In this document: one piece after another, positions 1 through 30,461 of the stretch
Layout of the letters: each line of letters opens with the position of its first letter
Numbering within the stretch: position 1 is the first letter of the stretch
UHGV virus genome: UHGV-0365687
Source of the DNA: a virus
Direction: 5' to 3' (one strand)
Length of the DNA: 35,238 bases
Notes under the pieces: generated by a model
Told to the model about the DNA's origin: nothing
Databases searched by the model: none
Seen by the model: only the letters and a program-made list of their open reading frames with translations
Position numbers and translations under genes: made by a program

Positions 1-33
1 AAAGAGTTCCTTTCAAATTTAAATAAGCGTTAA

Positions 34-56
34 GCCCACCACTCTTACTGGTGGGC
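34..56 (-). terminator. hairpin (8 bp GC-rich stem gcccacca/tggtgggc) in AT-rich context downstream of the hok-like gene; possible 3' end or fold-back element of the hok transcript
   Basis: Inverted repeat read directly; flanked by aaatttaaat-type AT-rich sequence. Confidence 0.3.
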
Positions 57-135
57 CTCAATTTAAATTTGGGTGCCACTTCGACCATACCCTGGCAACC
101 GATTGACGGGGGATTGCTCCCCCGTCGCGGTTTCC

Positions 136-276
136 TTACTGCTTACACTGTAAGAACGCCGCAAACTCCGCTCCCCAGAAGCTCATCCGTATTTCACACA
201 GCGAACCGTGCAACATCCAGATGATGAGGATTGCCGTCACGCAGAACGTGATGGCCGTAAGCGATTTTTGCGACAT
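136..276 (-). CDS. hok: Hok/Gef-family type I toxin (46 aa small membrane peptide)
   Basis: Manual translation MSQKSLTAITFCVTAILIIWMLHGSLCEIRMSFWGAEFAAFLQCKQ: N-terminal hydrophobic helix then SLCEIR and E-AAFL-C motifs typical of Hok/HokA/Gef; AAGGAG RBS about 8 nt upstream of ATG; below the 60 aa cutoff of the ORF track. Confidence 0.6.
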   Translation of the reverse strand: MSQKSLTAITFCVTAILIIWMLHGSLCEIRMSFWGAEFAAFLQCKQ

Positions 277-406
277 AGCACTTGCTCCTTTTCCGGAGAG
301 GCGCTAACCTTTCACTTGTCAAGGTAATGCGGTTAGGGCCTCGGTTAAACAGAGATGTTTTCCGGGGCCTTTCCACATCTGGCCTTCGGGTATTCCCTCC
401 GACCAT
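194..406 (-). CDS. mok-like overlapping reading frame (70 aa) covering the hok start
   Basis: ORF track frame overlaps hok start in a different frame, as mok does in hok/sok loci; no independent sequence signature. Confidence 0.3.
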   Translation of the reverse strand: MVGGNTRRPDVERPRKTSLFNRGPNRITLTSERLAPLRKRSKCYVAKIAYGHHVLRDGNPHHLDVARFAV

Positions 407-466
407 CAGCCGAAAGGCACCCGCGCGTAATCTATCGCTTTTTTGTTACTCCGGCAATTCTGCCTG

Positions 467-727
467 TTAATTCTGAGGTAAAGGCAAGCTCATCTGATTG
501 TTTCCCCTGTGTGAAGCTGGCAGCTCATGCCACGGGATACCTTCTGAAGAGTGAACGCCGGAGGCGTGTTTCGATGTGAATTTATGGAAAGCTTCCAGTG
601 TTGAGAAGCATACGCCGCATTCCAGGTTGTTACACTGGTAATACTTTTGCCGCACGGTGTTTGAATCATTTTCCGGACGACTGGTGCGGATACGGGCAGA
701 TGCGCCACAAAGCGGACAACGGAACAT
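467..727 (-). CDS. ogr: Ogr/Delta-family zinc-finger late-gene transcription activator
   Basis: MFRCPLCGASARIRTSR...YQCNNLEC: C-X2-C...C-X4-C arrangement and N-terminus resemble P2 Ogr; AAGGGAGG RBS upstream. Confidence 0.8.
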   Translation of the reverse strand: MFRCPLCGASARIRTSRPENDSNTVRQKYYQCNNLECGVCFSTLEAFHKFTSKHASGVHSSEGIPWHELPASHRGNNQMSLPLPQN

Positions 728-769
728 AGCGACCTCCCTTAACGTGGTGCTGCCGCTATTCTAAGTTGC

Positions 770-1879
770 TCACTCTGTTTCCGCTATCCATTCCGGGATT
801 TTTGCTTCAAGCTCAAGCTGCGTGGTAAAGCCGCTGCTATCAATGGTGTGCTCGGCTTTTGCAATAATCCAGTCCTGATTATCAATCTCGCTTTTAAATC
901 CTGTTACCGTGCCATGCATTTCGGGGTAGAGTTCTGCACGTCCACGCGCCAGCGTGATGGAGAATGATGCGGCTCCGCGTTGTAGCTGCTGCCACTTTGC
1001 CGCCGCTGCGCGTCTTGCTGCCTGCTCGTTCTGATAAGTTTTGCGTAACACAAACACGTTGCCTTCCGCACCTTCCATATAGTCGCCTTCCCGGCTGCTG
1101 CTTTTCTCCTTTTTTGGTTTTGACGGTTTGCGGCGTTTCACGCTGACTTTTTTCTTTTTCCCGTAATTAAGATCAAGCCAGTAAGCGCGTACCCCCGTAT
1201 ACGCTTCGCGGTCAGCAATGCGGAACTGATGGCGATCGCCGCTGCTGCGTGTGATGGCGAACGAGGGCAACGGCTGGCCCTGTGCGTTCACGCCACCGCC
1301 TGGCATGATGAATAACAGATTACCGCTTTTTACCGTGGTGATTGCGCCCAGCATTTCCGCCATGCGCGTAAGGAAGGACATGTCGCTTTCTTCGGTCTGG
1401 TCGGCGTGGTCGATTTCGATATCCATCAGCATTTCGCTGATTTGCGGTTTCAGACCGTACCGATGAGCGATGGCGGATACCACACGCTCAACGGTCACAT
1501 CATGCCAGGACACCTCACGTTTAACGTTAAATTCATCCCGGAAATCTGCGCTTCTGGCTGAAACAGTCAGCCTGTCCGGCGGTCCTTCGTGTGCGATTTC
1601 ATCAACAATGTAAGTGCCTTTTTCTGTCAGCGGTTCCCCTTTCCAGCCAATGAGAACCGTCAGACGCGCGCCCCGTGGCGGTAGCTGCAACTGGCCATCG
1701 GCATCATCCAGCGTGATGGTGAGCTGGTCCGCCTCAAATCCCCGGTTGTCGGTCAGTGACAGGCTCATCAGGCGTTCTGCCACGCCGGACAGCGTTTTAC
1801 CCTCGGCGAGAATATCAAAATCCGGCATTTTCACGGGGTCTGTGCCCTGACTGAGCAATTGCATGGTGGTGTCGGTCAT
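770..1879 (-). CDS. D: tail protein D (late control gene D family)
   Basis: ORF track frame; start refined to ATG at 1877-1879 (MTDTTMQLL) preceded by GGAGGGAG RBS; the open frame continues upstream to 2011 without a credible start. Confidence 0.88.
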   Translation of the reverse strand: MTDTTMQLLSQGTDPVKMPDFDILAEGKTLSGVAERLMSLSLTDNRGFEADQLTITLDDADGQLQLPPRGARLTVLIGWKGEPLTEKGTYIVDEIAHEGPPDRLTVSARSADFRDEFNVKREVSWHDVTVERVVSAIAHRYGLKPQISEMLMDIEIDHADQTEESDMSFLTRMAEMLGAITTVKSGNLLFIMPGGGVNAQGQPLPSFAITRSSGDRHQFRIADREAYTGVRAYWLDLNYGKKKKVSVKRRKPSKPKKEKSSSREGDYMEGAEGNVFVLRKTYQNEQAARRAAAAKWQQLQRGAASFSITLARGRAELYPEMHGTVTGFKSEIDNQDWIIAKAEHTIDSSGFTTQLELEAKIPEWIAETE

Positions 1880-2036
1880 CTGCTCCCTCCCTGTGTGGCA
1901 TGGTCGCATGTGCGTGCGGAGGGGGTTACTGCTTTTTGTTGTCGCCGTGGCGGGAGAACGGCGCAGGGGTGAGATTACGCGCGTGGTGGGTGATGATTGT
2001 TGCCGAATCATTTAACGGATACAAGGGGCTGAAGCT

Positions 2037-3221
2037 ATGAGTGAAACTCGTTTTCATGGTGCCCGTGTTACGGAAAATACCGACCTGGTAACAGCGATTA
2101 ACGATGTTGATTCCAGCGTTATTGGTATCGTGGCAACGGCGGATGATGCGGACGCGAAGCTGTTCCCGCTGAACAAGCCCACACTGCTGACCCGCGTCAA
2201 TGACGTGCTGGGAAAATGCGGAACAACGGGGACGCTTTATCGTGCGCTTAAGGCCATCGCAGACCAGGTGAGCACAAAGGTGATCGTCGTTCGCGTGGCT
2301 GAACACAAAGAAGAAGACGAAAAGACGCAGGATCAACTGGTTATCGGTGGTTCTGAGGATGACGGCAGCTATACGGGGATGTATGCGCTGCTTGTTGCAG
2401 AGCAGGATGAAAGCATCGGATACCGTCCGCGTATTCTGGCCGCGCCGGAGCTGGACACGGAGGCGGTGACAAAATCCCTGTGCGTGATTGCGGGTAAACT
2501 GCGCGCATTTGTGTATGCCTCATGTCACGGCTGTAACACGATGGCTGAAGCGATTACCTACCGCCAGAAATTCAACGAACGTGAAGTGATGCTCTTATGG
2601 CCGGACTTCATCGCCTACAACCCGAAAAGTGGCGAAAACGAAACGTTCCCCGCGCCTGCTTATGCGTGCGGCCTTCGTGCGTACATTGACCATGAGCAGG
2701 GCTGGCACAAATCGCTGTCCAACGTTCCGGTTAAAAATGTGCTGGGGATGTCGAGGCATGTGTTCTGGTCGTTGCAGGCCGAAGACAGCGATGCCAACAG
2801 CCTCAACAACAAAGAAATCACGACCATTATTCGTCGCAACGGGTTCCGCTTCTGGGGCAACCGCACACCGGAAACGAACGCCTACATTTTTGAGGTGTAT
2901 ACCCGAACCGCACAGGTGCTGGCTGATTCAATTGCGGAAGCGCAGTTTGAAACCATCGACAGTCCACTGACGCCTGCGAACGTGAAGGATGTTATCAGTG
3001 CCATCAGGGCAAAACTGGATTCACTGGTGACTGCCGGGAAACTGATTGGCGCGGAGTGCTGGTATGACGTGGTGGATAACAGCACCACGGATTTACGTCA
3101 GGGGCGTGTGCGTATTCGCTACAAATATACGCCCGTTCCGCCACTGGAAGACATGGAGCTTTACCAGACGTTTACTGATGAATACTTTGAACCCGCATTT
3201 GCGGTGCTGGGAGGTGCCTGA
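2037..3221 (+). CDS. FI: contractile tail sheath protein FI
   Basis: 394 aa, P2 FI-like sequence; stop overlaps FII start (ATGA). Confidence 0.9.
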   Translation: MSETRFHGARVTENTDLVTAINDVDSSVIGIVATADDADAKLFPLNKPTLLTRVNDVLGKCGTTGTLYRALKAIADQVSTKVIVVRVAEHKEEDEKTQDQLVIGGSEDDGSYTGMYALLVAEQDESIGYRPRILAAPELDTEAVTKSLCVIAGKLRAFVYASCHGCNTMAEAITYRQKFNEREVMLLWPDFIAYNPKSGENETFPAPAYACGLRAYIDHEQGWHKSLSNVPVKNVLGMSRHVFWSLQAEDSDANSLNNKEITTIIRRNGFRFWGNRTPETNAYIFEVYTRTAQVLADSIAEAQFETIDSPLTPANVKDVISAIRAKLDSLVTAGKLIGAECWYDVVDNSTTDLRQGRVRIRYKYTPVPPLEDMELYQTFTDEYFEPAFAVLGGA

Positions 3222-3733
3222 TGGCTGTGCCAAAACATCTTCGCTTTTTTACGCTGTTTGTGGATGGTGAAAACGAAGTGGGTAAGGTGACGTCCGTCAC
3301 TTTGCCTAAGCTGACGCGCAAAACCGACAGCTACCGGGGTGGTGGCATGATGGGGGCGGTAAGTATTGATCTCGGTCTGGACGACTCCGCGCTTGATGCG
3401 AGCTTTGTCATGGGGGGCGCAGTTCGTGAGCTGTTCCTTAAGTATGGCGGCACGATTGACGGCACGCTGCTGCGTTTTGCGGGTGAATACTACACCGATG
3501 CAGAAAGCGACCTGTATGAAGTCGAAATGCGCGGACGTGTGACGGAAATTGATATGGGGGAAGCCAAACAGGGCGAAGCCACATCACACACTTACGCCAT
3601 TAAAAACACCTACTACAAGCTGAGTGTTAACGATCGTCCGTTGTGGGAGATTGACCTGCTGAACTTCATTTACCGGAAGGACGGCAAGGACATTGTGCCC
3701 GATCGCATCCGTTCCGCGCTTGGGTTTGGCTGA
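3221..3733 (+). CDS. FII: tail tube protein FII
   Basis: 170 aa directly after the sheath gene, P2 FII-like. Confidence 0.88.
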   Translation: MAVPKHLRFFTLFVDGENEVGKVTSVTLPKLTRKTDSYRGGGMMGAVSIDLGLDDSALDASFVMGGAVRELFLKYGGTIDGTLLRFAGEYYTDAESDLYEVEMRGRVTEIDMGEAKQGEATSHTYAIKNTYYKLSVNDRPLWEIDLLNFIYRKDGKDIVPDRIRSALGFG

Positions 3734-3787
3734 TAAGTAATATGCAGGCGGCGCAGTGCGTCGCCTCTGACTGAAAGGAGTTTCCTG

Positions 3788-4153
3788 ATGAAAGAGACGA
3801 AAAACATCGATACCGAAAACACGGTAGTTACTGACACTGTGAAAGAAACCAGTGAGCGTGGCGTAAAACTTACCCAACCCATTGAGCGAGGCGGCGAAAA
3901 AATCACGTATGTGGAGATCACCGGGGCTATTGAGCAGGCTGGATCTCTGCGAGATTTGTCGCTGTCTGATGTGCTGAATCTGAAAGCGGAATCCATGTTT
4001 ACGCTGCTGTCACGCGTGACATCACCGCGACTGGATGAAGTGACGATCAAAAAAATGGCATCCCGTGACTTTATTCAGTTATGTGTGGTTGCCGTAAATT
4101 TTTTGAGCGGTGCGGACTCTGGCGGGAAGAACGAACAGGCGACGGAAGCCTGA
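3788..4153 (+). CDS. E: tail assembly chaperone E
   Basis: Position between tube and tape-measure genes; GAAAGGAG RBS; contains slippery heptamer. Confidence 0.8.
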   Translation: MKETKNIDTENTVVTDTVKETSERGVKLTQPIERGGEKITYVEITGAIEQAGSLRDLSLSDVLNLKAESMFTLLSRVTSPRLDEVTIKKMASRDFIQLCVVAVNFLSGADSGGKNEQATEA

Positions 4154-4317
4154 TCACGGTTGTGTGCTTTGAGCGCATAGAAGACTTTGTGGCAGATATT
4201 GCCGTTATTTTTAACTGGTCGCCCGCCGAAATCTTCATGATGACGCCCGGCGAAGTGGTTAGCTGGCGTGAGCGGGCGGCACTTCGCAGCGGGAATGCAG
4301 ACAATGAAGACTCTTGA
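3788..4317 (+). CDS. E': tail assembly chaperone E+E' fusion by programmed -1 frameshift at T_TTT_TTG (4099-4105)
   Basis: Slippery heptamer sits in the E frame as T TTT TTG; the -1 frame is open from there to the stop at 4315-4317 (ORF 4081..4317). Confidence 0.65.
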
Positions 4318-7111
4318 TATCCGGGTCGCTTTCAGCGCCGTTGACAGGCTGACCCGACCTGCCGAAAACGCCCGCCGCCTGATGGGGCAGTTTGGTGACT
4401 CCATCCAGCGAACGCAGGGGGCGATCAAAAATCTCGAGCGTCAGGCGCGTTCATTTGAGCGCGCCCGCGACGCTGTCAGTAAAGCGGATGCGGGTATCGT
4501 GAAAGCGCGACGCCAGCTTAACGCCCTTAATCAGTTACAACGCACGGGTACAGTGCTCAGCGAAAAACAACAAAAGCTGATGCAGCAGTTAAGCACCCGG
4601 CTTGAACGCCTGAATGAATCGCGCACGCGGGAAATTCAGAAAATGCGGGAGCTTGGCGGAGAGCTGAAACGCCACGGCATTTCCCTGACAGGCAGCGATA
4701 ACACCATCCAGCAGGCCATCAGACGCACCGAACAATACAACAACCAGCTTGAACGCGAACGGCAGGCGCTTGCGCGTGTAACGCGGGCGCGTGAGCGGTA
4801 TTCGCGCGCGCAGGAAACAGCGGGAAAACTGAAAACAGGTGGTGCGCTGGCAATTGGTGCGGCAGCGGCGGGCGGCTATGCTGCCGGGCGTTTTTTGCAG
4901 CCTGCGATCGGGTTCGGGAAAGAGATGTCCCGCGTTCAGGCGCTGACGCGAATCGACCAGAACAGCCCACAGTTTAAGGCGCTGCGTGAGCAGGCGTTAA
5001 AACTTGGCTCTGAAACGCAGTTCACCGCTGGAGATGCCGCCAGTGGACAGGCATTTCTTGCAATGGCTGGCTTCACACCACAGGCCATTCAGGCTGCGCT
5101 TCCCGGTGTGCTGAGCATGGCAACGGCTGGCGGTATGGATCTTGGCGAGACGGCGGATATTGGCTCAAACATCCTGACGCAGTTCGGCCTTTCTGCCGAC
5201 CAGATGGACCGGGTCGGTGACACGCTCACCGGAGCGTTTACCCGTACCAACACTGACCTTCGCGCACTGGGCGAAACCATGAAATATGCAGGTCCGGTGG
5301 CGGGCAAGCTGGGAATATCGCTGGAGCAGGCCGCAGCGATGGCGGGCGTGCTGGCGAATATGGGTATCAGGGGAAGTGATGCCGGGACGGCAATGCGTGC
5401 CAGCCTGGCTCGTCTGGCATCACCGCCAAAGGCGGCAGCAGAGGCGCTGAAAGAGCTTGGTGTGGCAGTCTCTGACGCGAACGGCAAAATGCGCCCGATG
5501 GAGGATGTGCTGGCCGACCTTTATAAAGCCACCCGCAAATACGGGGAAGTTGACCGGGTATCGTTCTTTAAGGACATTGCCGGAGAAGAGGCTTTCACAT
5601 CGTTTATGGCGCTCGTTGATGCAGCGGGTGACGGCTCCTTACCTAAACTGAGAAAAGAACTTGAAGGCGCGCGCGGTGAGGCTGAACGCACAGCAAAGGT
5701 TATGGCCAACAACCTTGACGGCGATCTGAAATCACTCAGCAGTGCATGGGAAGGGTTGCGCATCCGCATTGCAGATCTGATTGACGGTCCGCTGCGTTCT
5801 GTCACGCAGTGGCTCACGCGAGTGGTCTCAAAGGTGACGGCGCTGGCGCAGGCCCATCCCGCACTGACGCGCCAGCTACTGATTGCAGGCGGTGCGTTGC
5901 TGGCAATGACTGCAACGGTTGGCTCGTTGTCGCTGGCTATTGGTGTGCTTGCTGGCCCGCTGGCAAAACTGCGTCTTGGTTTTTCTCTCCTGACCGGATC
6001 AATGAATGCTGTCAGGGTCCTGCCAGCACTATGGGGAATGGTGACGGGTTCCGTTTCTTTGCTGGGAGGTGCTATCGGGGCGCTGTTCAGTCCGGTCGGG
6101 TTGATTGCTGCTGCGTTTGTGGCTGCGGCGGTTCTCATCTGGAAATACTGGGAACCCATCAAGGCGTTTTATGCCGGGGTGTTCAGCGGGATTATGGAAA
6201 GGCTGACCCCGTTGCGCGAAACCTTTGAACGGTTTGGTCCTGTTTTTGACGCAATCGGAAGCGGGATCAGCCAGGCGTTTAACTGGTTTAAATCGCTGCT
6301 GTCACCGATGGAGTCCAGCAAGGAAACGCTGGATAAATGTACCAGTGCTGGCGAGATATTCGGTAACGTTCTTGGCGGTGCGTTACAACTTGTTCTGACG
6401 CCTGCAAAAATGCTACTGGATACGCTGGCGTGGATACTTGAAAAACTTGGCGTCCTTCCGGATGAAGCGGAAAGGGCGCGCAAGAAAATCGAAGACGCAC
6501 AGCGTGCGGCCATTCTTCAGGACAAGGTTGCCTTGCTTCAGGGGGACCTGGCGAAAATCAATCCGCCGAAGCCTGTGGAAAATGGCAATGGCACCGGAGG
6601 TGATAAACCCAAAGACAACAAACCGCTCACAGACAGCAATACCGGTACGCTACGCAGACTCAGCAAAATTGCTGATAACACAGGTAAGCTGGTTGATGAG
6701 ACGAAAAAACGCATTGGCCCCGGCGATATTGTCTTTAAGAACCTGCCCCGCGCACTTGCTGTTCGTGGGGAGTGGCAGGAGCGGAAGATTGCGCAGATCA
6801 GTAAGCCTGCTTCCGCAATCAACATCACACCCGTGGTCCCGACTCCTCTGCCTCCGGCGCTGGTCCCTGTTGTTGCGGCCAGCTCCCGCCCGGTGGCGGA
6901 GGCCATACGATCGCCAGTGGCATCAGTTCCTGCAACTTCCCGTAACCGGGAGCCTGTTGTCTCCGGATTTGGCGGTGAAATTCATGTTCATCTGCATAAC
7001 GTTGTTACGCAGAATCCCCGCGAACTGGCGAAACTGGTCGGTGAAATGGTCAGGGCAGAATTGGAACGACGCGACCGTGCCGGACGTGGCAGTTTTTACG
7101 ATAAAGATTGA
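4304..7111 (+). CDS. T: tail tape measure protein T (start uncertain: GTG 4268, ATG 4295 or ATG 4304)
   Basis: 947 aa frame with coiled-coil N-terminal part, Gly/Ala-rich hydrophobic centre, position after E/E'. Confidence 0.85.
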   Translation: MKTLDIRVAFSAVDRLTRPAENARRLMGQFGDSIQRTQGAIKNLERQARSFERARDAVSKADAGIVKARRQLNALNQLQRTGTVLSEKQQKLMQQLSTRLERLNESRTREIQKMRELGGELKRHGISLTGSDNTIQQAIRRTEQYNNQLERERQALARVTRARERYSRAQETAGKLKTGGALAIGAAAAGGYAAGRFLQPAIGFGKEMSRVQALTRIDQNSPQFKALREQALKLGSETQFTAGDAASGQAFLAMAGFTPQAIQAALPGVLSMATAGGMDLGETADIGSNILTQFGLSADQMDRVGDTLTGAFTRTNTDLRALGETMKYAGPVAGKLGISLEQAAAMAGVLANMGIRGSDAGTAMRASLARLASPPKAAAEALKELGVAVSDANGKMRPMEDVLADLYKATRKYGEVDRVSFFKDIAGEEAFTSFMALVDAAGDGSLPKLRKELEGARGEAERTAKVMANNLDGDLKSLSSAWEGLRIRIADLIDGPLRSVTQWLTRVVSKVTALAQAHPALTRQLLIAGGALLAMTATVGSLSLAIGVLAGPLAKLRLGFSLLTGSMNAVRVLPALWGMVTGSVSLLGGAIGALFSPVGLIAAAFVAAAVLIWKYWEPIKAFYAGVFSGIMERLTPLRETFERFGPVFDAIGSGISQAFNWFKSLLSPMESSKETLDKCTSAGEIFGNVLGGALQLVLTPAKMLLDTLAWILEKLGVLPDEAERARKKIEDAQRAAILQDKVALLQGDLAKINPPKPVENGNGTGGDKPKDNKPLTDSNTGTLRRLSKIADNTGKLVDETKKRIGPGDIVFKNLPRALAVRGEWQERKIAQISKPASAINITPVVPTPLPPALVPVVAASSRPVAEAIRSPVASVPATSRNREPVVSGFGGEIHVHLHNVVTQNPRELAKLVGEMVRAELERRDRAGRGSFYDKD

Positions 7112-7123
7112 GGAGTCATGGCC

Positions 7124-7612
7124 ATGATGATGATCTACGGCATGTTTGTTTTTGAGCTGCGTACATTGCCGCATCAACAGTTACAGCAAAACAAAAGCTG
7201 GCGGCATGTGAAAAATGAACGCGTTAACCGTTCAGCAAGCTGGCAGTATATCGGTGCAGGTGATGATCGCATCGTTCTTTCTGGTGTGCTTTATCCTGAA
7301 ATTACAGGTGGCGAAGTGTCGCTGTCGCTGCTGACCACGCAGGCGTATACAGGACGACCCTGGCCTTTGATTGATGGTGTCGGGCAGATTTACGGCATGT
7401 ATGTGCTGACTGAAACGAATACGACCCGTTCCGAGTTTGATCGCTACGGTAAGGCGAAAAAGATAGAATTTTCACTGACTCTTGAACGCTGTGATGAGGA
7501 TTTGCGGGAGCGCCTGCAATCCTCATCGTTCAGTGATATGCTGTCCGGCTTCAAAGATAAGGTCACATCATCCCTTAACAGCGCGGCCAGCTCCGTTAAA
7601 GGGCTGTTTTGA
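7124..7612 (+). CDS. U: tail protein U
   Basis: P2 U-like; ATG at 7124 has better RBS spacing (GAGGAG 7110-7115) than ATG 7118. Confidence 0.8.
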   Translation: MMMIYGMFVFELRTLPHQQLQQNKSWRHVKNERVNRSASWQYIGAGDDRIVLSGVLYPEITGGEVSLSLLTTQAYTGRPWPLIDGVGQIYGMYVLTETNTTRSEFDRYGKAKKIEFSLTLERCDEDLRERLQSSSFSDMLSGFKDKVTSSLNSAASSVKGLF

Positions 7613-7622
7613 TTAACGCAAA

Positions 7623-7657
7623 ACCGCTAATGGTCAGATTAGCGGTTATTTTGTTTT
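7623..7657. terminator. intrinsic terminator hairpin (9 bp stem accgctaat/attagcggt) with T-tract, between convergent U and invertase genes
   Basis: Perfect inverted repeat 7623-7631/7638-7646 followed by tattttgtttt; A-run on the other side. Confidence 0.6.
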
Positions 7658-8233
7658 CTGACTCTTCTCTATTGTTCCGCTTGATTCTCCTGCGGGGTGG
7701 TAACGATAAATCGTCGATGTACCAATGCCGTAAATTATTGCCAGTTGTTTTCTGTCGTGACCGTTTTTAATCAGCCTTGCTATTTGCTCATGCTGTTCTT
7801 TTGTCAGCTTCGGGCGACGTCCGCCTGTGCGCCCCCGTGCGCGCGCTGCTGCCAGTCCGGCCAGTGTACGTTCAACGATTAATTCACGTTCCATTTCAGC
7901 CAGGGCACCCATAACGTGGAAGAAAAAACGCCCCATTGGAGAAGATGTATCTATGCTGTCGGTCAGACTGCGAAAATTAATCCCTCGCTCCTGTAGTTCC
8001 CCGACGAGAGAAATCAGATGTTTCATGCTTCGCCCGAGGCGATCCAGTTTCCAGACAACCAGCGTGTCACCTTTTTGAAGGCGCTTTAAAGCGCGTTTTA
8101 ATCCCGGTCAGTCTGTCTTTGTCCCGCTTAATTTATCTTCAAATATTTGTTCACATCCTGCACAAACAAGAGCGTTTCGTTGCAGGTCTGTATTCTGGTC
8201 ATTTGTTGATACCCTTACATAGCCAATCAGCAC
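7646..8233 (-). pseudogene. Gin/Pin/Cin/Hin-family serine DNA invertase, interrupted by in-frame TGA at 8108-8110 (codon 42)
   Basis: Manual translation from GTG 8231-8233: (M)[40 protein letters not shown]-stop-PGLKRALKRLQKGDTLVVWKLDRLGRS then the ORF-track frame MKHLISLVGEL...; continuous invertase homology across the stop. Confidence 0.75.
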
Positions 8234-8287
8234 GCTGAATCTCCCGTCCAAAAGCGTAAATCATGCCATGCAGGTCAGAAACGGCCA

Positions 8288-8315
8288 TTATCTAAAACCT
8301 CGGTTTGCAGGAAAC
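8288..8315. repeat. gix/cix-like recombination site (left boundary of invertible segment)
   Basis: ttatctaaaacctcggtttgcaggaaac; inverted copy of the site at 11232-11259; resembles the gix consensus from memory. Confidence 0.7.
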
Positions 8316-9201
8316 GGTAAACAAGGCTGGTAACGCCGTTCAGCGTTCCGGTGATAAAATGACCGGAGAACTGAAAATTGGCACGGTGAATGCGCTGCGA
8401 ATTTTCAATGATGCCTTCGGTCTTATTTTCCGTCGTTCAGAAGAGCACCTTCATTTCATCCCTACGGCTGAAGGACAAGGCGAAAACGGTGATATCGGCC
8501 CATTAAGGCCATTCGCTATAAATCTGAGAACAGGTGCTATATTTGTCAACCACGGGGCCAAAATTGAAGGAGGTCTAGCTATTGGTGCTACTGATAACGC
8601 ACTGGGTGAAAACTCCATTGTTCTGGGAGATAACGACACCGGATTTAGGCAAGATGGAGATGGTTTTATTAGCATCTTTTCAAATGGTTCGCGCATAGGA
8701 CATATTGATGAGTTAGGATTACATATTTATAAAGATATTGAATCTAATGGCAGCAATTTTAGATTAAAAGGTGATTACCGCCACCACATTACATTCGCCA
8801 ACGAAGACGGAAGTATTCGTATGTTTTTGTGGAAAGATAAAGATGGTGATGGTGTTCATATTAATAATGGTTCAAGCGGTGGCGGTGATTTCGTTTTTAA
8901 AACAGATGGGGGATTTGCGCTGGGAAGTGGTGCGCAAGTTGCGTCTAATGGCGATATTTATGGTTCAGTGTGGGAAAACAACTGGTTAAGCACATGGCTG
9001 CATAATCATGTCGTTCGGGATATTCGTCTTGGCAGCATTGAATATAAAAACGTATGGCGCGACTACGGCTTTGGCGATGCGTCAGGTTATGTTTTAACAG
9101 CCGCAATTAACAGCAATGCGGATGATATTGTCGACACTGTTGCCAGAAGGCCAATTCAGAAATTGATTGGGGGAATATGGTACAACGTGGGGAGTGTTTA
9201 A
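8305..9201 (+). CDS. alternative tail-fibre C-terminal cassette (Sv'-like), promoterless and startless in the current orientation
   Basis: Frame opens at the crossover site ([12 protein letters not shown]...), matching the H constant/variable junction; ends with the PIQ...WYNVGSV motif shared with H. Confidence 0.7.
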
Positions 9202-9202
9202 G

Positions 9203-9730
9203 ATGATGCACCTGAAAAATATTAAGGCCGGGAATCCGAAAACACCGGAACAATACCAGCTAACTAAAAAAGCGGGCGTGGTATGGTTCTTTTGCGAAGA
9301 TGGCAAAAACTGGTATGAGGAACAAAAGAATTTTCAGCCAGACACCATAAAAATTGCTTACGATGAGAACAACATCATCGTTGCTGTCAGTAAAGACGTT
9401 TCAACTATTAATCCTGAAGGGCTAAGCATAGTTGAAGTTCCTGATATTACGGCAAATCGTCGCGCAGACAATAACGGAAAATGGATGTTTCTGGATGGTA
9501 AAGTAGTAAAGAGGGAATATACAGAACAGGAACTGCAACAACAGGCCGAATCACAAAAGGCCGCGTTACTTTCCGAAGCAGAAAGCGTTATTCAGCCACT
9601 GGAACGCGCCGTCAGGCTGAATATGGCGACGGATGATGAACGCGCACGACTGGAGTCATGGGAACGCTACAGTGTTCTGGTCAGCCGTGTGGATACGGCA
9701 AATCCTGAATGGCCACAAAAGCCTGAATAA
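9203..9730 (+). CDS. tail fibre assembly protein (alternative, U'-like)
   Basis: [14 protein letters not shown]...; N-terminal ~90 aa nearly identical to the 9759..10292 product, C-terminus divergent. Confidence 0.75.
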
Positions 9731-9735
9731 AAATT

Positions 9736-9755
9736 AAGGCCCGATATCGGGCCTT
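9736..9755. terminator. palindromic hairpin aaggcccgatatcgggcctt between the two convergent fibre-assembly genes
   Basis: Perfect palindrome read directly. Confidence 0.4.
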
Positions 9756-9758
9756 CTC

Positions 9759-10292
9759 TCATTCTGGTTGTTCGGGAAACGTTACTGGCAGGCAGGAGGT
9801 GTCTGTGGATTCGACTTTCTGCGCATAGAGCATCCACTCGGTTAATTTTTGTTTATTCTCGTCGGAAATGATGCCCATCCGTAGCTGTGAGTCCCATAGC
9901 TGGGTTTTATCCCTGACAAGTTGCAACAGGCTTTGCTTTTCATTCTCTGCCTGCTGCCTCTGTTCCTCCTCGGTATAAGTTCGCTTTATCACTACGCCAT
10001 CTTTGAACATCCATTTACCCGAAATATCAGCCCGGCGATTTGCTGTAATATCAGGTAATTCAACGACGCTTGCGCCTTCTGGATTAATTGCTGAAACATC
10101 CTTTTCAATACAAATAATAACGCCGTTGTGGTCATAGACCATTTTCAACGTATCAGGCTGAAAGTTCTTTTGTTCCTCATACCAGTTTTTCCCATCCTCT
10201 GTATAAAGCCATTTGATGTTAAATTGTTTCGTTAGCTGGTATTGCTCTTTTGTTTTAGGGTTGCCAGCAGTAATATTTTTTAAGTGCATCAT
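9759..10292 (-). CDS. G: tail fibre assembly protein (expressed orientation)
   Basis: 177 aa immediately downstream of H on the same strand. Confidence 0.8.
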   Translation of the reverse strand: MMHLKNITAGNPKTKEQYQLTKQFNIKWLYTEDGKNWYEEQKNFQPDTLKMVYDHNGVIICIEKDVSAINPEGASVVELPDITANRRADISGKWMFKDGVVIKRTYTEEEQRQQAENEKQSLLQLVRDKTQLWDSQLRMGIISDENKQKLTEWMLYAQKVESTDTSCLPVTFPEQPE

Positions 10293-10294
10293 AA

Positions 10295-12391
10295 TTAAAT
10301 ACTCCCCGCGTTATACCACGTTCCATTAATGCAATACTGAATTGGCCTTGCCTGTGTTGTATCAATTAATTCATCACGGTTCCCGTTAACTGACCCCGTA
10401 ACGACATAACCTGACCTGTCAGACCAACCGGGACCATTCCATGTCTGAACAGATGACAGACCGCCAAGGCGAATACCTGTAATAAACCTTGAGTTACATT
10501 CTGCCTGCGTGTATGCACCAACATCTCCCGCAGAGGGTTTGCGGGTCGTGGTGTAAAACTCTGACCAGTCAGCCTCAAATCCATAACCATCACGCGCTGA
10601 ACGATAAAAAATACCGCCGTTCCTGTAATTCACGCGGAACTGTACAGCAGGGCAACTCCCCGCATTCATATTGAAGTGGAGGATTAATGTCGATGCATTG
10701 CTGATATCTGCATCATAAACACCGCTATTCCAGTTCCAGCCAACAGATTTATCATTTGCAACCCTGCTTCCTGTTTGCCCTAAAGCAAATGCAGGCTGCT
10801 GGTTTTTCGTGTTGTAGTCTCGTCGCCAGCCAGGAGCATAAGCATCACCATGATTAATATAAGTGAATTGAGCGTTAGTAATTCCGCCACCGCTGGAAGT
10901 GCTCGGGGTGGTTACACGGATGGTCATGGCACCTTTATTACCCATAACCTCAATAACGCAACCTGCAAGATGAATAGTTCCACAGCCAGTATCGGTAATA
11001 ATTTTATTATTGCCGTATGACCATGAACATTTGCACATCCAGTATGGGTGATTGAATGCCCCTTGAGAATCCAGCCATTCAATCAATTGTGCCGTCGTCC
11101 AGTTCCCTGCACCTGTACTAATAGAACTGTGAAAAGCGCGACATGCACCAATATTTTTTGTGAAGGTATCTTTTCCTGGAATATCTGCGCCGTTCTGGTT
11201 TTTCTGCAATGCGCCTGAAGCCTGATTTATCGTTTCCTGCAAACCGAGGTATTCGATAACGGCGGCAACGGTCGATTTCGCAAGAATATCCCGCCCGACT
11301 TTTGTCAGAGTTGCCAGGCTGGCGACATCATTCCCCGTAAAATACGGAAACCTGTCTGCCGCAGTAGCAAGCCCGGCCAGCGCCGTCAGGGTGGCATCTT
11401 TCGGTTGCTTACCCGCAAGCGCGTTAGTCATGGTGGTCGCAAAATTCGGGTCGTTGCCCAACGCCGCAGCCAGCTCGTTTAGCGTATTCAGTGCGTCAGG
11501 CGACGAGTCCACGAGGGCAGCGATCGCAGCCATAACGAAAGCCGTGCTTGCGATTTGGGTATTATTCGTTCCCTGTCGCGCAGTTGGCGTTGTTGGCGTT
11601 CCGGTCAACGCAGGACTGTTTAAGGGCGCTTTCTTGTTCGTTTCATCCATTACCGCCTTAACCGCTTTCGATGTCGCGGCCAGTGTTTCAGACGTGCTGT
11701 TGGTTGCACTGCTGAGCTGGACTATCCCTTTTCGTGCCGTCGTGGCGTCCTGAGCGGTATATTTTCCGTTAGCCAGGTCATACGCGGCCTTAACCGCTTT
11801 CGGCGTTGCGGCCAGCGTTTCAGAATCGCTGTTAGTGGCGCTACTGAGTTGAACAAAGCCTTTTGCGGTCAGCGAGGCATCCGGGTGACGTCGTGACTGT
11901 TCATGCTCTTTCAGTTTGTCATCCACGTAATCCACTGTGGCCATCACCATGGTGTTATCCACGGTAAGCGCCACGCTGGCAGTGCTGGATACGGTCAGAA
12001 TGGTGCGAAATGTTTGTGCACGTCCGGACCCCTCGGCAACGGTTGGCTTGTAACTTTCGGCAGTATTGCCCACCGCGATTAAATCGCCGTGCTCATCAAA
12101 TACACCAATTTCCCGGATCCAGAATCCGCCCGTTTCAGGAGGAATAACCAGCTCCGCAATAATGCGGTTCTGATGTGTTGCGTCCAGGATGACGCGATTA
12201 ACAGTGTGTCGCCACACCTCATGCACCAGACGGGTCTGCTTACTGTCTGGTGTGGGCAACGTGCCGCCACCGTCGCCCACGGCCATATGAGTCAGGCGGA
12301 CAGGCTTACCATCTGGCGCGGCTGCCTGAGCTAATTTTTTTGCACCCGTATCGGTGATAACGGTTTTAAATTTTCGTGTTGTGGTACTCAT
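10295..12391 (-). CDS. H: tail fibre protein H (constant N-terminal part plus currently joined variable C-terminal cassette)
   Basis: 698 aa; N-terminus and collagen-like repeats resemble P2 H; gix-like site lies inside the gene at the constant/variable junction (LGLQET). Confidence 0.9.
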   Translation of the reverse strand: MSTTTRKFKTVITDTGAKKLAQAAAPDGKPVRLTHMAVGDGGGTLPTPDSKQTRLVHEVWRHTVNRVILDATHQNRIIAELVIPPETGGFWIREIGVFDEHGDLIAVGNTAESYKPTVAEGSGRAQTFRTILTVSSTASVALTVDNTMVMATVDYVDDKLKEHEQSRRHPDASLTAKGFVQLSSATNSDSETLAATPKAVKAAYDLANGKYTAQDATTARKGIVQLSSATNSTSETLAATSKAVKAVMDETNKKAPLNSPALTGTPTTPTARQGTNNTQIASTAFVMAAIAALVDSSPDALNTLNELAAALGNDPNFATTMTNALAGKQPKDATLTALAGLATAADRFPYFTGNDVASLATLTKVGRDILAKSTVAAVIEYLGLQETINQASGALQKNQNGADIPGKDTFTKNIGACRAFHSSISTGAGNWTTAQLIEWLDSQGAFNHPYWMCKCSWSYGNNKIITDTGCGTIHLAGCVIEVMGNKGAMTIRVTTPSTSSGGGITNAQFTYINHGDAYAPGWRRDYNTKNQQPAFALGQTGSRVANDKSVGWNWNSGVYDADISNASTLILHFNMNAGSCPAVQFRVNYRNGGIFYRSARDGYGFEADWSEFYTTTRKPSAGDVGAYTQAECNSRFITGIRLGGLSSVQTWNGPGWSDRSGYVVTGSVNGNRDELIDTTQARPIQYCINGTWYNAGSI
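11232..11259. repeat. gix/cix-like recombination site (right boundary, inside H)
   Basis: gtttcctgcaaaccgaggtattcgataa; 20 bp core identical in inverted orientation to 8297-8316. Confidence 0.7.
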
Positions 12392-12393
12392 GC

Positions 12394-12924
12394 TTAATCG
12401 TCCGGATAAATGGTAATAACTTCACCGTCATAAGTTGCCGCCGCTGCGAAAATACCCCCCGGAATTTCCTGAATGATATTCAGCCCTGTCATGTGGCGGC
12501 TGACCGGACGGGCATCAGCAATCAACCGCTCCATTTCCAGATACATTTCCTCCGTCACGCCACTGTCCAGTGTGCCGACTTCAACGGTAAATGTTCCCGG
12601 TTCTCCGCCGAACTCCCACCATTCAGACACGCGAATGAGGTATCCCAGCGGCTCAATGGCCCTGCGCAGTGCGCTGATGGTCCCTTTGTGTCGGTGTATC
12701 AGCCATGCATCACGAATAACCTGTCGCTTTGTCTCTTCCGGCCAGTTGCGATCCCAGCGGTCAACGGAAAATGCCCAGGCGAGATAGGGCAGCAGATGCA
12801 CCGGACAGGTATCCGGCGACCACAGTGTGTTGAGGTCTACCGGAATGTCTGTAATGCGTGTTCCGACGGCTTCGGCACAACGCATGAAATTGCTGGCTGA
12901 TGGTGGTAACAACGAATTACTCAT
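12394..12924 (-). CDS. I: baseplate assembly protein I
   Basis: P2 I-like; start refined to MSNSLLPP with GAAGGTGG RBS. Confidence 0.8.
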   Translation of the reverse strand: MSNSLLPPSASNFMRCAEAVGTRITDIPVDLNTLWSPDTCPVHLLPYLAWAFSVDRWDRNWPEETKRQVIRDAWLIHRHKGTISALRRAIEPLGYLIRVSEWWEFGGEPGTFTVEVGTLDSGVTEEMYLEMERLIADARPVSRHMTGLNIIQEIPGGIFAAAATYDGEVITIYPDD

Positions 12925-19812: not shown

Positions 19813-20649
19813 TCAGAAGTCAGCCAGCTGGTCGGAGGCTGCGCCCGTTGCGGTGAACCGGTTCTGCGGATCGCCGTCCTGCGTGCGCAGTTTTTCCTTC
19901 AGTGCTGCCAGCTCTGTGGTCAGTGAAGTGATTTTCTGGCTGTCCTGCTGATGGCGGGTTTCCAGTGCATTAAAACGGTCGATAATGTCGGCCTGTGACG
20001 TTGCGACGCCTTCCACCGCTTCCTGAATGCGGGAGAAACTGGCGTCATCCGCTTTGCGGCCACGGCCAATAATCCCCATTACGCGGTTAAACCACTGGGT
20101 GCCTTCTTCCTGGCGTTGTTCTGCCATTTCGATGATTTCAGACTCGATGGCTTCGGAGATAAGCGGTGCTTCACCCTGGACACTGTTGAACGTCATCACC
20201 GCCTGACGTTGCTGTGCCGTGAATTTCAGGCGCTCAGTGCCCAGGCTTGCCGGGGTGTCGGTCATCGCCAGCCCGACCAGATAGGCGCGCCCGTTAACGG
20301 AGAACTGCGGGTGCAGTTCGATACTGGAATAGATTTTCTTGCCGTCAGCGACAAGCTGCTTCATGCGCTCGGTCGGTTCGATTTCTGCATACAGCGCAGT
20401 ACGTCCGGCCAGCGGGCCTTCCGTAATATCTTCCGTACTCAGCGCGGTGACATCGCCCATTGCGGAAAATTCGCTTGACGGGCATGGCGAGAGATAGTGC
20501 TCAACGTTCACGCGGGCAGCGTAAACATCCGGGTTGAAGTTCTCGGCGGCTTCACGCAGATGTACCGGACTGATTTCGCGGCCATCAACAGTTGATCCGG
20601 AGACAGCCACGCGAAACTTTTTGCGGGATGTCTTTTTTTCATTAGCCAT
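19813..20649 (-). CDS. O: capsid scaffolding protein O
   Basis: Start refined to MANEKK with GAGGGG RBS. Confidence 0.85.
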   Translation of the reverse strand: MANEKKTSRKKFRVAVSGSTVDGREISPVHLREAAENFNPDVYAARVNVEHYLSPCPSSEFSAMGDVTALSTEDITEGPLAGRTALYAEIEPTERMKQLVADGKKIYSSIELHPQFSVNGRAYLVGLAMTDTPASLGTERLKFTAQQRQAVMTFNSVQGEAPLISEAIESEIIEMAEQRQEEGTQWFNRVMGIIGRGRKADDASFSRIQEAVEGVATSQADIIDRFNALETRHQQDSQKITSLTTELAALKEKLRTQDGDPQNRFTATGAASDQLADF

Positions 20650-20803
20650 AGTTTTTGCCCCTCTGACTGGTTCTTCAGTCATGATGGCAAAGCGTAACAG
20701 GCTGATACAAAGGGCTTTTGTTGTAAGAAAACGGCCAGAACAGGGGGTTAAGGAGAACAGTTTCGCGCGCGGGTAATCTTCCTGTAATTACTCAGGGGGA
20801 GCA

Positions 20804-30141: not shown

Positions 30142-30461
30142 GGGGTGGCCTCTTTGGTTGTAAGTTTTGAAAACTCACCATCCAGAGCTGCGAAACTGTG
30201 GGTGGCGAGACGTACGGGGTTCGCAGTACCGGCAACCAAAGAACCCGGCCCGACCGAAGTCGGCCCCGTACGCCCCGCCATAATTCGTGTGCGAAAAAGA
30301 CGTGGCAATACAGTACGCACAAAAAAACCGCTGGCGCGGTTGTGCGCTTTGGTTGTCAGCAGGCTGCGAAACCCGGCACCCGTTTTATGAGGTGCAGCGG
30401 AAATGTAACCTGACTGATTGCGGCATGGCAAGCGGTTTTTTTGTGTGTGCATTATGATCAC
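30142..30461 (-). ncRNA. 320 bp non-coding, highly structured leader/intergenic element (candidate cis-regulatory RNA or sRNA)
   Basis: No credible ORF; nested inverted repeats (30211-30219/30264-30272, 30151-30160/30233-30242, 30321-30332/30431-30442). Confidence 0.25.

What the first reader, a model, noticed from the sequence alone, without database searches (positions are those of the whole stretch)
1880..7657. Tail sheath-tube-tape measure block (FI-FII-E-T-U) is inverted relative to flanking D-ogr and H-to-O modules
In P2 the late operon is FI FII E T U D on one strand, followed by ogr, and co-directional with H and G. Here ogr, D, H and the other structural genes are on the minus strand while FI to U are on the plus strand, so D is divergent from FI across a 157 bp region (1880-2036) and U ends at a terminator facing the invertase. 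This implies either an ancient rearrangement with D under its own promoter, a recent inversion, or an assembly artefact. The invertase sits at one junction but I found no convincing gix-like site at either breakpoint.
Basis: partly seen in the sequence, partly recalled or inferred. Interest (0 to 1): 0.5.

Follow-up and report, generated by a model that had tools for sequence, protein, structure and literature searches.

The report
Fixed tail-gene inversion in P88-like prophages
The flipped sheath-to-U tail gene block is real, but it is the normal, anciently fixed gene order of a large group of P2-like prophages (phage P88 and relatives, present in about a quarter of complete E. coli genomes), so it is ordinary rather than a recent rearrangement or an assembly error.

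Summary
U ends at a hairpin terminator facing an invertase gene.

The window is a complete P88-like (Xuanwuvirus) prophage, and P88's GenBank record has the same order. The D|FI junction occurs in 1355 of 5426 complete E. coli genomes. An artificial P2-order U-D junction occurs in none.

In 86 loci, all 64 with D at least 61% identical to this one have the inverted block. These come from about 27 enterobacterial genera. All 22 loci with D at most 54% identical keep the P2 order, as do Pseudomonas and Burkholderia outgroups. This points to one ancient inversion fixed in a clade.

The invertase is irrelevant. No repeats or gix sites flank the block, many relatives lack the gene, and here it carries a premature stop.

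I infer that D and ogr are transcribed from a new promoter mirroring PF about a single Ogr-type operator (1940-1957). That is the geometry of P2's divergent PP/PO pair. The mirror -10 is conserved only in the inverted clade.

Low interest.

The parts
467..727 (-). ogr (Ogr/Delta-type zinc-finger late activator), 86 aa, 42 bp downstream of D
   Evidence: Translation shows the CxxC...CxxxxC motif. BLASTP gives 42% identity to P2 Ogr, E = 2e-14.
770..1879 (-). D (baseplate hub / late control D), 369 aa
   Evidence: Pfam Phage_GPD. 52% identical to P2 D. SD GGAGGGAG at 1890-1883 precedes the ATG at 1879.
1900..1908 (-). Predicted extended -10 of a D/ogr promoter (PD): TGcGACCAT. Predicted start about 1893.
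   Evidence: Anchored alignment of 62 unique relatives: hexamer A2 in 59/62, A5 in 47/62, T6 in 57/62; upstream TG with G in 56/62. These positions are at background in 15 P2-order controls. The start site is inferred, not measured.
1923..1928 (-). Weak -35-like position of PD (TAACCC here, TTGnnn in many relatives), 17 bp from the -10
   Evidence: Weakly conserved TT at the first two positions. Inferred.
1940..1957 (.). Ogr-type operator TGTCGCCGTGGCGGGAGA (TGT-N12-ACA with one mismatch), centre 1948.5. It lies 55.5 bp from both predicted start sites.
   Evidence: 37 of 62 relatives have a perfect TGT-N12-ACA at this spot and 20 have one mismatch. The extended form TTGTTGT-N12-AGAAC occurs exactly twice in the window, here and between O and P.
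1969..1974 (+). -35-like element of PF (GTGAGA)
   Evidence: T in 52/62 and G in 62/62 relatives. Also conserved in P2-order controls, 11/15 and 14/15.
1992..1997 (+). -10 of PF (GATGAT), 17-bp spacer. Predicted start about 2004.
   Evidence: A2, A5 and T6 are each in 60/62 relatives. Same register in P2-order controls, 13-14/15. P2's mapped PF start lies at the equivalent offset.
2037..3221 (+). FI, tail sheath
   Evidence: Pfam Phage_sheath_1 and related domains.
3221..3733 (+). FII, tail tube
   Evidence: Pfam Phage_tube, E = 8e-47.
3788..4317 (+). E (3788-4153) plus the overlapping E' frame (4081-4317), tail assembly chaperones
   Evidence: ORFs. Equivalent P88 and PhiR44_2 genes are annotated GpE / P2 GpE family. 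The frameshift itself was not examined.
4268..7111 (+). T, tape measure. The P88 annotation implies a start at 4304.
   Evidence: Pfam PhageMin_Tail. P88 annotation.
7118..7612 (+). U, tail protein
   Evidence: Pfam Phage_P2_GpU, E = 6e-39.
7622..7647 (.). Hairpin terminator between the convergent U and invertase genes
   Evidence: Terminator scan: 10-bp stem followed by ATTTTGTTTT.
7646..8233 (-). Gin/Cin-type DNA invertase pseudogene with a premature TGA at codon 42 (8110-8108). Not part of the inversion mechanism.
   Evidence: Alignment to the P88 invertase: CGA changed to TGA. The remaining ORF matches only profile positions 79-144 of the 145-position Resolvase N-terminal domain, plus the HTH.
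8284..11263 (.). Neighbouring invertible tail-fibre (G-type) segment. It is bounded by 45-nt inverted repeats at 8284-8328 and 11219-11263.
   Evidence: Inverted repeats I1-I4. gix-like sites. Similarity to the Mu, P1 and D108 G/C segments.
20722..20739 (.). Second operator of the same type, between O and P (TGTAAGAAAACGGCCAGA). Flanked by a PO extended -10, TGcCATCAT (20689-20681), and a PP -10, TAATCT (20774-20779).
   Evidence: The true O start is probably 20649.

Best explanation
The window is a complete P88-like (Xuanwuvirus) P2-family prophage. In the common ancestor of a large clade of enterobacterial P2-like phages, the 5.6-kb segment carrying PF-FI-FII-E-E'-T-U was inverted once. One breakpoint lay just upstream of the PF operator. 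The other lay between U and D. The arrangement then became fixed.

Shown:
- The order is identical in P88, phiSM, SEN5 and 60-odd genome loci.
- It co-segregates perfectly with D, FI and U phylogeny.
- It is not polymorphic in E. coli.
- The invertase plays no part.

Inferred: after the inversion, the dyad-symmetric Ogr operator of PF (1940-1957) sat next to D, facing away from it. A mirror-image promoter (PD) evolved on its other side, with extended -10 TGcGACCAT at 1908-1900 and a predicted start near 1893. One Ogr-bound operator, centred about 55.5 bp from each start, would then drive FI-U rightward and D-ogr leftward. This is the geometry of P2's own divergent PP/PO pair. Because ogr lies downstream of D, PD would also keep the late positive feedback on ogr that read-through from PF gives in P2.
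For: Identity of the element:
- 94-96% nucleotide identity to P88 and relatives over 79-87% of 1-12500, in one colinear place.
- The P88 annotation shows D(-) | FI..U(+) | invertase(-).

Fixation:
- The D|FI junction is in 1355 of 5426 complete E. coli genomes.
- For a synthetic P2-order U-D junction, 1416 genomes have the two halves but none joins them.

Depth of the rearrangement:
- 64 of 64 loci with D 61-100% identical are inverted, and 22 of 22 with D 49-54% identical are P2-order.
- SEN5 (Senquatrovirus) is inverted in its own annotation, and Kp4871-3 (Reginaelenavirus) by my tblastn gene order.
- The inverted loci are monophyletic in midpoint-rooted NJ trees of D, FI and U.
- The outgroups P2, Cartapus, Pseudomonas Dobby and Burkholderia PhiBP82.2 have the P2 order.

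Promoter model:
- The spacing around the operator is invariant across the clade.
- The FI-side -10 has A2, A5 and T6 each in 60/62 unique sequences.
- The D-side mirror -10 has A2 in 59/62 and T6 in 57/62, with the G of an upstream TG in 56/62. It lies at exactly the mirrored distance, 43.5-48.5 bp from the dyad centre.
- In 15 P2-order controls the FI side is conserved in the same register, but the mirrored side is at background, 2-6 of 15.
- P2's annotated PP/PO has one activator site. Its dyad (3063-3080) is centred 55.5 bp from both mapped starts, 3016 and 3127.
- The window's O|P region has the same operator form, and TTGTTGT-N12-AGAAC occurs only at these two places.
- An Ogr homologue is encoded.
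- The TGT-N12-ACA consensus for P2 late promoters is summarised in PMC3931495.
Against: - No transcription start, Ogr binding or reporter data exist for this region, so the PD promoter is a comparative-sequence inference.
- The window's operator has one mismatch (AGA instead of ACA).
- The PD hexamer GACCAT and its -35 (TAACCC) are weak.
- The predicted D leader is only about 14 nt.
- FII and J trees did not recover the inverted set as monophyletic. That may reflect mosaicism or rooting. It leaves open whether there was one event or a module later spread by recombination.
- The 80 genome loci are the best 80 hits, not a random sample.
Confidence: 0.8

Rival explanations
1. The ancient fixed inversion is correct, but D/ogr is not driven by an Ogr-dependent mirror promoter sharing the PF operator. 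D would instead use an activator-independent extended -10 promoter, or another regulator that binds the conserved GC-alternating tract. The mirror symmetry would be coincidental.
For: The D-side element has an extended -10 (TGn), a type that can work without a -35 or an activator. A conserved alternating Pu/Py tract of median 12 nt sits in its spacer and is unexplained.
Against: The -10 lies at exactly the mirrored distance from the dyad in 62 diverged sequences, with no length variation. P2's PP/PO pair shows that one operator can serve two divergent late promoters. A constitutive promoter reading into ogr would be expected to switch on late genes in lysogens; this last point is an inference from P2 biology.
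Confidence: 0.15
2. There was no in-situ inversion. The FI-U module was replaced by illegitimate or homologous recombination with a module from another phage, inserted in the opposite orientation.
For: P2-like genomes are mosaic. FII and J trees do not recover the inverted set as a clade. The slot next to U is a variable cargo site.
Against: FI and U trees agree with the D tree. The PF promoter travelled with FI in the same register as in P2-order phages. That is what a simple inversion with a breakpoint upstream of PF predicts. No donor lineage is evident.
Confidence: 0.08
3. A recent or reversible inversion, possibly catalysed by the adjacent Gin-type invertase.
For: An invertase gene abuts one end of the block.
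Against: No inverted repeats flank the block, and the only gix-like sites are at 8291 and 11234. The invertase has a nonsense codon here. PhiR44_2, SEN5 and most genome loci lack the invertase yet have the same order. None of 5426 E. coli genomes shows the opposite orientation.
Confidence: 0.01
4. An assembly artefact in this window.
For: None beyond the unusual order relative to P2.
Against: The same junctions occur in 1355 complete genomes and in independently sequenced phages: P88, P884B11, phiSM, 520873 and PhiR44_2.
Confidence: 0.01

Closest known systems
Escherichia phage P88 (Xuanwuvirus P88, Peduoviridae) and close relatives (P884B11, Citrobacter phiSM, Escherichia phages 520873, 503458, PhiR44_2)
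   Same: 94-97% nucleotide identity. The order is identical: ogr(-) D(-) | FI FII E T U(+) | invertase(-) | tail-fibre G segment | H I J W V(-). P88 is inducible and infective (PMC5285337), and phiSM is spontaneously active (PMC6456863). The arrangement is therefore functional.
   Different: Here the invertase carries a nonsense mutation. The tail-fibre variable parts differ. PhiR44_2 lacks the invertase and G segment altogether.
Bacteriophage P2 late gene organisation (F operon FI-FII-E-E'-T-U-D from PF, then ogr)
   Same: The gene set is the same, with D 52%, P 44%, O 36% and Ogr 42% identical. The prophage layout is otherwise the same. PF has an Ogr operator about 80-90 bp upstream of FI.
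   Different: FI-U is inverted, so D is no longer the last gene of the F operon. D lies divergent from FI and heads a short D-ogr unit. U now converges on the end of the tail-fibre operon.
P2 PP/PO divergent late promoters sharing one activator site
   Same: A single TGT-N12-ACA-type dyad is centred about 55.5 bp from each of two divergent start sites about 111 bp apart (P2). The predicted PD/PF pair and this phage's own PO/PP pair have that geometry.
   Different: It sits at a different place in the genome and drives different genes, and its starts are predicted, not mapped. The PD spacer carries a conserved alternating Pu/Py tract. At the equivalent position upstream of the PF operator, the P2-order controls have no such tract.
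Salmonella phages SEN4/SEN5 (Senquatrovirus) and Klebsiella Reginaelenavirus prophages
   Same: The FI-U block is inverted relative to D and the H-G module in the same way.
   Different: D is only 63-70% identical. There is no invertase. The immunity and replication regions differ.
Gin/Cin/Hin invertible segments (Mu G, P1 C)
   Same: The adjacent 8284-11263 segment is of this kind. It has 45-nt inverted repeats containing gix-like sites, two alternative fibre tips and assembly genes, and an invertase gene next to it.
   Different: The FI-U block is not such a segment. It has no flanking repeats and only one orientation in nature.

Membership tests
Xuanwuvirus (P88-like) prophage, Peduoviridae | High nucleotide identity and colinearity with phage P88 | tested here: met
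   94-96% identity over 79% of window 1-12500, in one colinear place. The annotation has the same order. Only the first 12.5 kb was compared at the DNA level.
Xuanwuvirus (P88-like) prophage, Peduoviridae | P2-type structural and regulatory gene set (P, O, D, FI, FII, T, U, ogr) | tested here: met
   Pfam hits for D, FI, FII, T and U. BLASTP to P2 O, P and Ogr.
P2-type F operon (FI FII E E' T U D co-transcribed from PF) | D immediately downstream of U on the same strand | tested here: not met
   D is on the opposite strand, divergent from FI.
P2-type F operon (FI FII E E' T U D co-transcribed from PF) | PF with a TGT-N12-ACA operator about 80 bp upstream of FI and a -10 about 44 bp from the dyad centre | tested here: met
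   The operator at 1940-1957 has one mismatch and its centre is 88.5 bp from the FI ATG. The -10 at 1992-1997 is in the same register as in 15 P2-order loci.
Ogr/Delta-dependent late promoter (for the proposed PD) | Dyad TGT-N12-ACA centred near -55 of the start site | tested here: inconclusive
   The geometry fits if the start is 7 nt beyond the conserved -10. The start site has not been measured.
Ogr/Delta-dependent late promoter (for the proposed PD) | Cognate Ogr-family activator encoded by the element | tested here: met
   ORF 467-727 is 42% identical to P2 Ogr and has the C4 motif.
Ogr/Delta-dependent late promoter (for the proposed PD) | Transcription requires Ogr | not testable with these tools
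   Needs reporter fusions or RNA mapping with and without Ogr.
Site-specific invertible segment (Gin/Cin/Hin type), considered for the FI-U block | Inverted-repeat recombination sites at both ends | tested here: not met
   No inverted repeat pairs 1880-2036 with 7613-7660. gix-like sites occur only at 8291 and 11234.
Site-specific invertible segment (Gin/Cin/Hin type), considered for the FI-U block | Both orientations occur among close relatives | tested here: not met
   None of 5426 E. coli genomes has the P2-order junction, and 1355 have the inverted one.
Site-specific invertible segment (Gin/Cin/Hin type), considered for the FI-U block | Functional invertase | tested here: not met
   Nonsense codon 42 relative to P88. 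The inversion is also present in invertase-free relatives.

The most novel reading that the evidence does not exclude
The inversion turned the unidirectional PF promoter into a bidirectional late promoter. One palindromic Ogr operator, placed 55.5 bp from each start, would co-activate the sheath-tube-tape-measure operon and a new short D-ogr operon. A conserved Z-DNA-prone alternating Pu/Py spacer on the D side may tune that arm, for example through supercoiling from divergent transcription. As far as my limited literature search shows, this would be an undescribed natural example of a dyad-symmetric class-I-type activator site being co-opted for a second promoter after a genome rearrangement.
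Probability: 0.55. Interest if true: 0.3.

Novelty: already known. Interest (0 to 1): 0.15.

Why it matters
It matters little as a discovery. The gene order is already visible in the public records of P88, SEN4/5, phiSM and thousands of prophages, and these phages are viable.

It is useful in three practical ways:
- Annotators and prophage-finders should not flag this order as a misassembly.
- The inversion is a clean synapomorphy. It separates a large enterobacterial clade of P2-like phages (Xuanwuvirus, Senquatrovirus, Reginaelenavirus and others) from P2, 186 and Elveevirus types.
- The D|FI intergenic region offers a compact, testable example of a late activator site being reused bidirectionally after a rearrangement.

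Tried and rejected
- **Exact TGT-N12-ACA search.** It found no site in any late intergenic region of the window. The operators here end in AGA and appear only when one mismatch is allowed.
- **Generic sigma-70 scan.** It called nothing in 1880-2036. The elements are too weak for its thresholds and were found only by comparative footprinting.
- **Early coordinate error.** I first mis-indexed the window and thought the FI-side -10 lay one helical turn too close to the operator. The anchored alignment corrected this.
- **ORF 490-708 as ogr.** It gave no Pfam hit. The real ogr is in another frame.
- **Literature.** The papers on P88, phiSM, SEN4/5 and Serratia PP4 contain no mention of inversion, rearrangement or gene order. 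A four-term search for a description of the inversion found nothing. I therefore cannot cite an explicit prior description, only the annotated records.
- **First tree script.** It timed out and was rerun with a faster distance method.
- **Searches not used.** I judged the large protein-database searches, structure prediction and metagenome scans unnecessary.
Full report
**1. What is in the window**

The ORF map and Pfam scan give, from the left:
- ogr: 467-727, minus strand.
- D: 770-1879, minus strand, Phage_GPD.
- A 157-bp gap: 1880-2036.
- On the plus strand:
  - FI: 2037-3221, sheath.
  - FII: 3221-3733, tube.
  - E/E': 3788-4317.
  - T: 4268-7111, tape measure.
  - U: 7118-7612.
- A hairpin terminator: 7622-7647.
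- A resolvase-family ORF on the minus strand.
- A Mu/P1-type invertible tail-fibre segment bounded by 45-nt inverted repeats at 8284-8328 and 11219-11263.
- H, I, J, W, V and onward to O on the minus strand, then P and Q on the plus strand.

The annotated P2 record has V W J I H G, FI FII E E' T U D and ogr all on one strand. Relative to P2, exactly the PF-FI...U segment is flipped.

One small correction: ogr is the 86-aa ORF 467-727. It is not the overlapping 490-708 frame, which has no Pfam match.

**2. It is the normal order of a known phage lineage**

Megablast of 1-12500 against phage records finds Escherichia phage P88 (Xuanwuvirus), P884B11, Citrobacter phiSM and Escherichia phages 520873, 503458 and PhiR44_2. 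Identity is 94-97%, in single colinear places. The P88 RefSeq annotation reads D(-), sheath to U(+), DNA invertase(-), fibre genes, as here. P88 is inducible and lyses new hosts (PMC5285337). phiSM is spontaneously active (PMC6456863). The arrangement therefore makes viable phage.

In 5426 complete E. coli genomes:
- A 1.2-kb probe centred on the D|FI gap is covered at 80% or more in 1355 genomes. Neither flank alone can reach 80%, so these matches must span the gap.
- The U|invertase junction is in 621 genomes. In many others the match stops at the end of U.
- In PhiR44_2, U is followed directly by the 3' end of the fibre-assembly gene, with no invertase.
- I built the junction that a P2-order version of this phage would have: the last 400 nt of U joined to the first 400 nt of D. 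1416 genomes contain the halves, and none has them joined.

The block does not flip in nature, and the window is not misassembled.

**3. How old is it, and which state is ancestral?**

I aligned five D proteins and scanned one genome per species (GTDB) for relatives with 10-kb flanks. I then placed the window's tail proteins on each locus with tblastn.

- All 64 sequences with D 61-100% identical to the window's (the window included) have U-T-E-FII-FI antiparallel to D and to V-W-J-I-H.
- These loci come from about 27 genera, among them:
  - Salmonella, Edwardsiella, Serratia, Erwinia, Pantoea and Pectobacterium.
  - Brenneria, Klebsiella, Kosakonia, Enterobacter and Citrobacter.
  - Xenorhabdus, Photorhabdus, Providencia, Morganella, Hafnia and Yersinia.
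- All 22 loci with D 49-54% identical have the P2 order.
- FI and U identities show the same gap between the two classes.
- In midpoint-rooted NJ trees of D, FI and U the inverted loci form one clade. FII and J do not resolve this way.
- Annotated SEN5 (Senquatrovirus) shows the inverted order. So does the unannotated Kp4871-3 (Reginaelenavirus), by tblastn gene order.
- Cartapus (Elveevirus), P2, Pseudomonas phage Dobby and Burkholderia PhiBP82.2 show the P2 order.

The P2 order is therefore ancestral. The inversion is most simply a single old event that defines a clade.

**4. The invertase is a bystander**

- No inverted repeat pairs the two ends of the block.
- A 23-nt gix-like probe, allowing three mismatches, hits only the two G-segment ends.
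- Most inverted-clade loci have no invertase.
- In this window the gene has CGA changed to TGA at codon 42 relative to P88. The surviving 126-aa ORF has lost the first 78 of the 145 profile positions of the Resolvase N-terminal (catalytic) domain.

**5. How D is probably expressed (inference)**

After the inversion D cannot be read from PF. A transcript coming from the fibre operon would have to cross 5.6 kb of antisense sequence and a terminator.

I extracted the D|FI gap from every inverted locus (62 unique sequences). I anchored them without gaps on the Ogr-type dyad, which is TGTCGCCGTGGCGGGAGA at 1940-1957 in the window. The dyad is a perfect TGT-N12-ACA in 37 of 62 sequences and has one mismatch in 20. 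Most of the gap is unconserved, but the spacing around the dyad never varies, and two sets of positions stand out.

- **FI side.** A -35-like nTGAnn lies at 1969-1974, with G in 62/62. After a 17-bp spacer comes a -10 nAnnAT at 1992-1997, with A2, A5 and T6 each in 60/62.
- **D side, read on the minus strand.** TG-n-nAnnAT lies at 1908-1900. A2 is in 59/62, T6 in 57/62, A5 in 47/62 and the G of TG in 56/62. It sits at exactly the mirrored distance from the dyad centre, 43.5-48.5 bp.

With starts 7 nt past each hexamer, the dyad is centred at about -55.5 for both promoters and the starts are about 111 bp apart.

Control: fifteen P2-order loci were anchored the same way. They keep the FI-side elements in the same register (13-14 of 15) but show nothing on the other side (2-6 of 15, background). 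PF therefore travelled with FI, and the mirror -10 is specific to the inverted clade.

Precedent:
- The P2 record annotates a single activator site for the divergent PP and PO promoters. Its dyad (3063-3080) is 55.5 bp from both mapped starts, 3016 and 3127.
- The window's own O|P gap is built the same way. Operator: 20722-20739. PO extended -10: TGcCATCAT. PP -10: TAATCT. True O start: probably 20649.
- The 12-specified-base motif TTGTTGT-N12-AGAAC occurs exactly twice in 35 kb, at these two gaps.
- The TGT-N12-ACA consensus and Ogr dependence of P2 late promoters are summarised in PMC3931495.

My reading is that one Ogr-bound operator drives FI-U one way and D-ogr the other.

Because ogr lies 42 bp beyond D, this would preserve the late read-through into ogr that P2's F operon provides. 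The P2 record annotates one terminator for both the ogr transcript and the F operon. None of this has been measured.

**6. Unexplained detail**

The spacer of the predicted D promoter carries an alternating purine/pyrimidine run, CA(C/T)GCGCGCG. Its median length is 12 nt in the clade, against 4 nt at the same offset in the controls.

**7. Verdict**

The other two are excluded.
The order is already present in annotated public records of named phages. The papers I could search do not comment on it.
- The only modestly new element is the inferred bidirectional PD/PF promoter.
- Interest is low.

Noticed in passing
window 7646-8233 (-), stop at 8110-8108: The Gin/Cin-type invertase is a pseudogene: CGA has become TGA at codon 42 relative to phage P88. 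The adjacent tail-fibre G segment (8284-11263) is therefore probably locked in its present orientation.
   Followed up: yes
window 1909-1921; also 20764-20772: A conserved alternating purine/pyrimidine (Z-DNA-prone) tract lies in the spacer of the predicted D promoter. Its median length is 12 nt in 62 relatives, against 4 nt in P2-order controls. A CGCGCGCG run also sits in the PP spacer. Function unknown.
   Followed up: partly
window 20649 vs 20682 (-): The longest O (scaffold) ORF starts at 20682. That ATG lies inside the predicted PO -10. The ATG at 20649 has a strong SD (AGAGGGG) and aligns with Met1 of P2 gpO, so it is probably the true start.
   Followed up: yes
window 467-727 (-) vs 490-708 (-): Two overlapping ORFs lie downstream of D. 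Only the 86-aa frame 467-727 is the Ogr homologue. The 72-aa frame 490-708, the same length as P2 Ogr, is spurious.
   Followed up: yes
window 136-276 (-): A 46-aa hok/gef-type membrane toxin ORF lies near the prophage end. P88 annotates the equivalent gene as 'MokW-like host killing'.
   Followed up: no
window 30198-30285 (-) and 30321-30395 (-): Rfam gathering-score matches to C4 antisense RNA (87 bits) and isrK Hfq-binding sRNA (66 bits) lie in the early/immunity region. This suggests a P1/P7-like antisense-RNA module in this P2-like prophage.
   Followed up: no
window 7613-9758; L002 9142-9394: The slot between the convergent 3' ends of U and the fibre-assembly gene is a variable cargo site. 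The invertase abuts U in 621 complete E. coli genomes. PhiR44_2 and many other genomes, O157:H7 among them, have nothing there.
   Followed up: partly
L008 (NZ_JBQPOM010000071.1, 'Vagococcus sp. WN89Y'): A contig assigned to a Firmicute carries a P88-type prophage with D 98% identical and the same gene order. This is probably contamination or mislabelling of the assembly.
   Followed up: no
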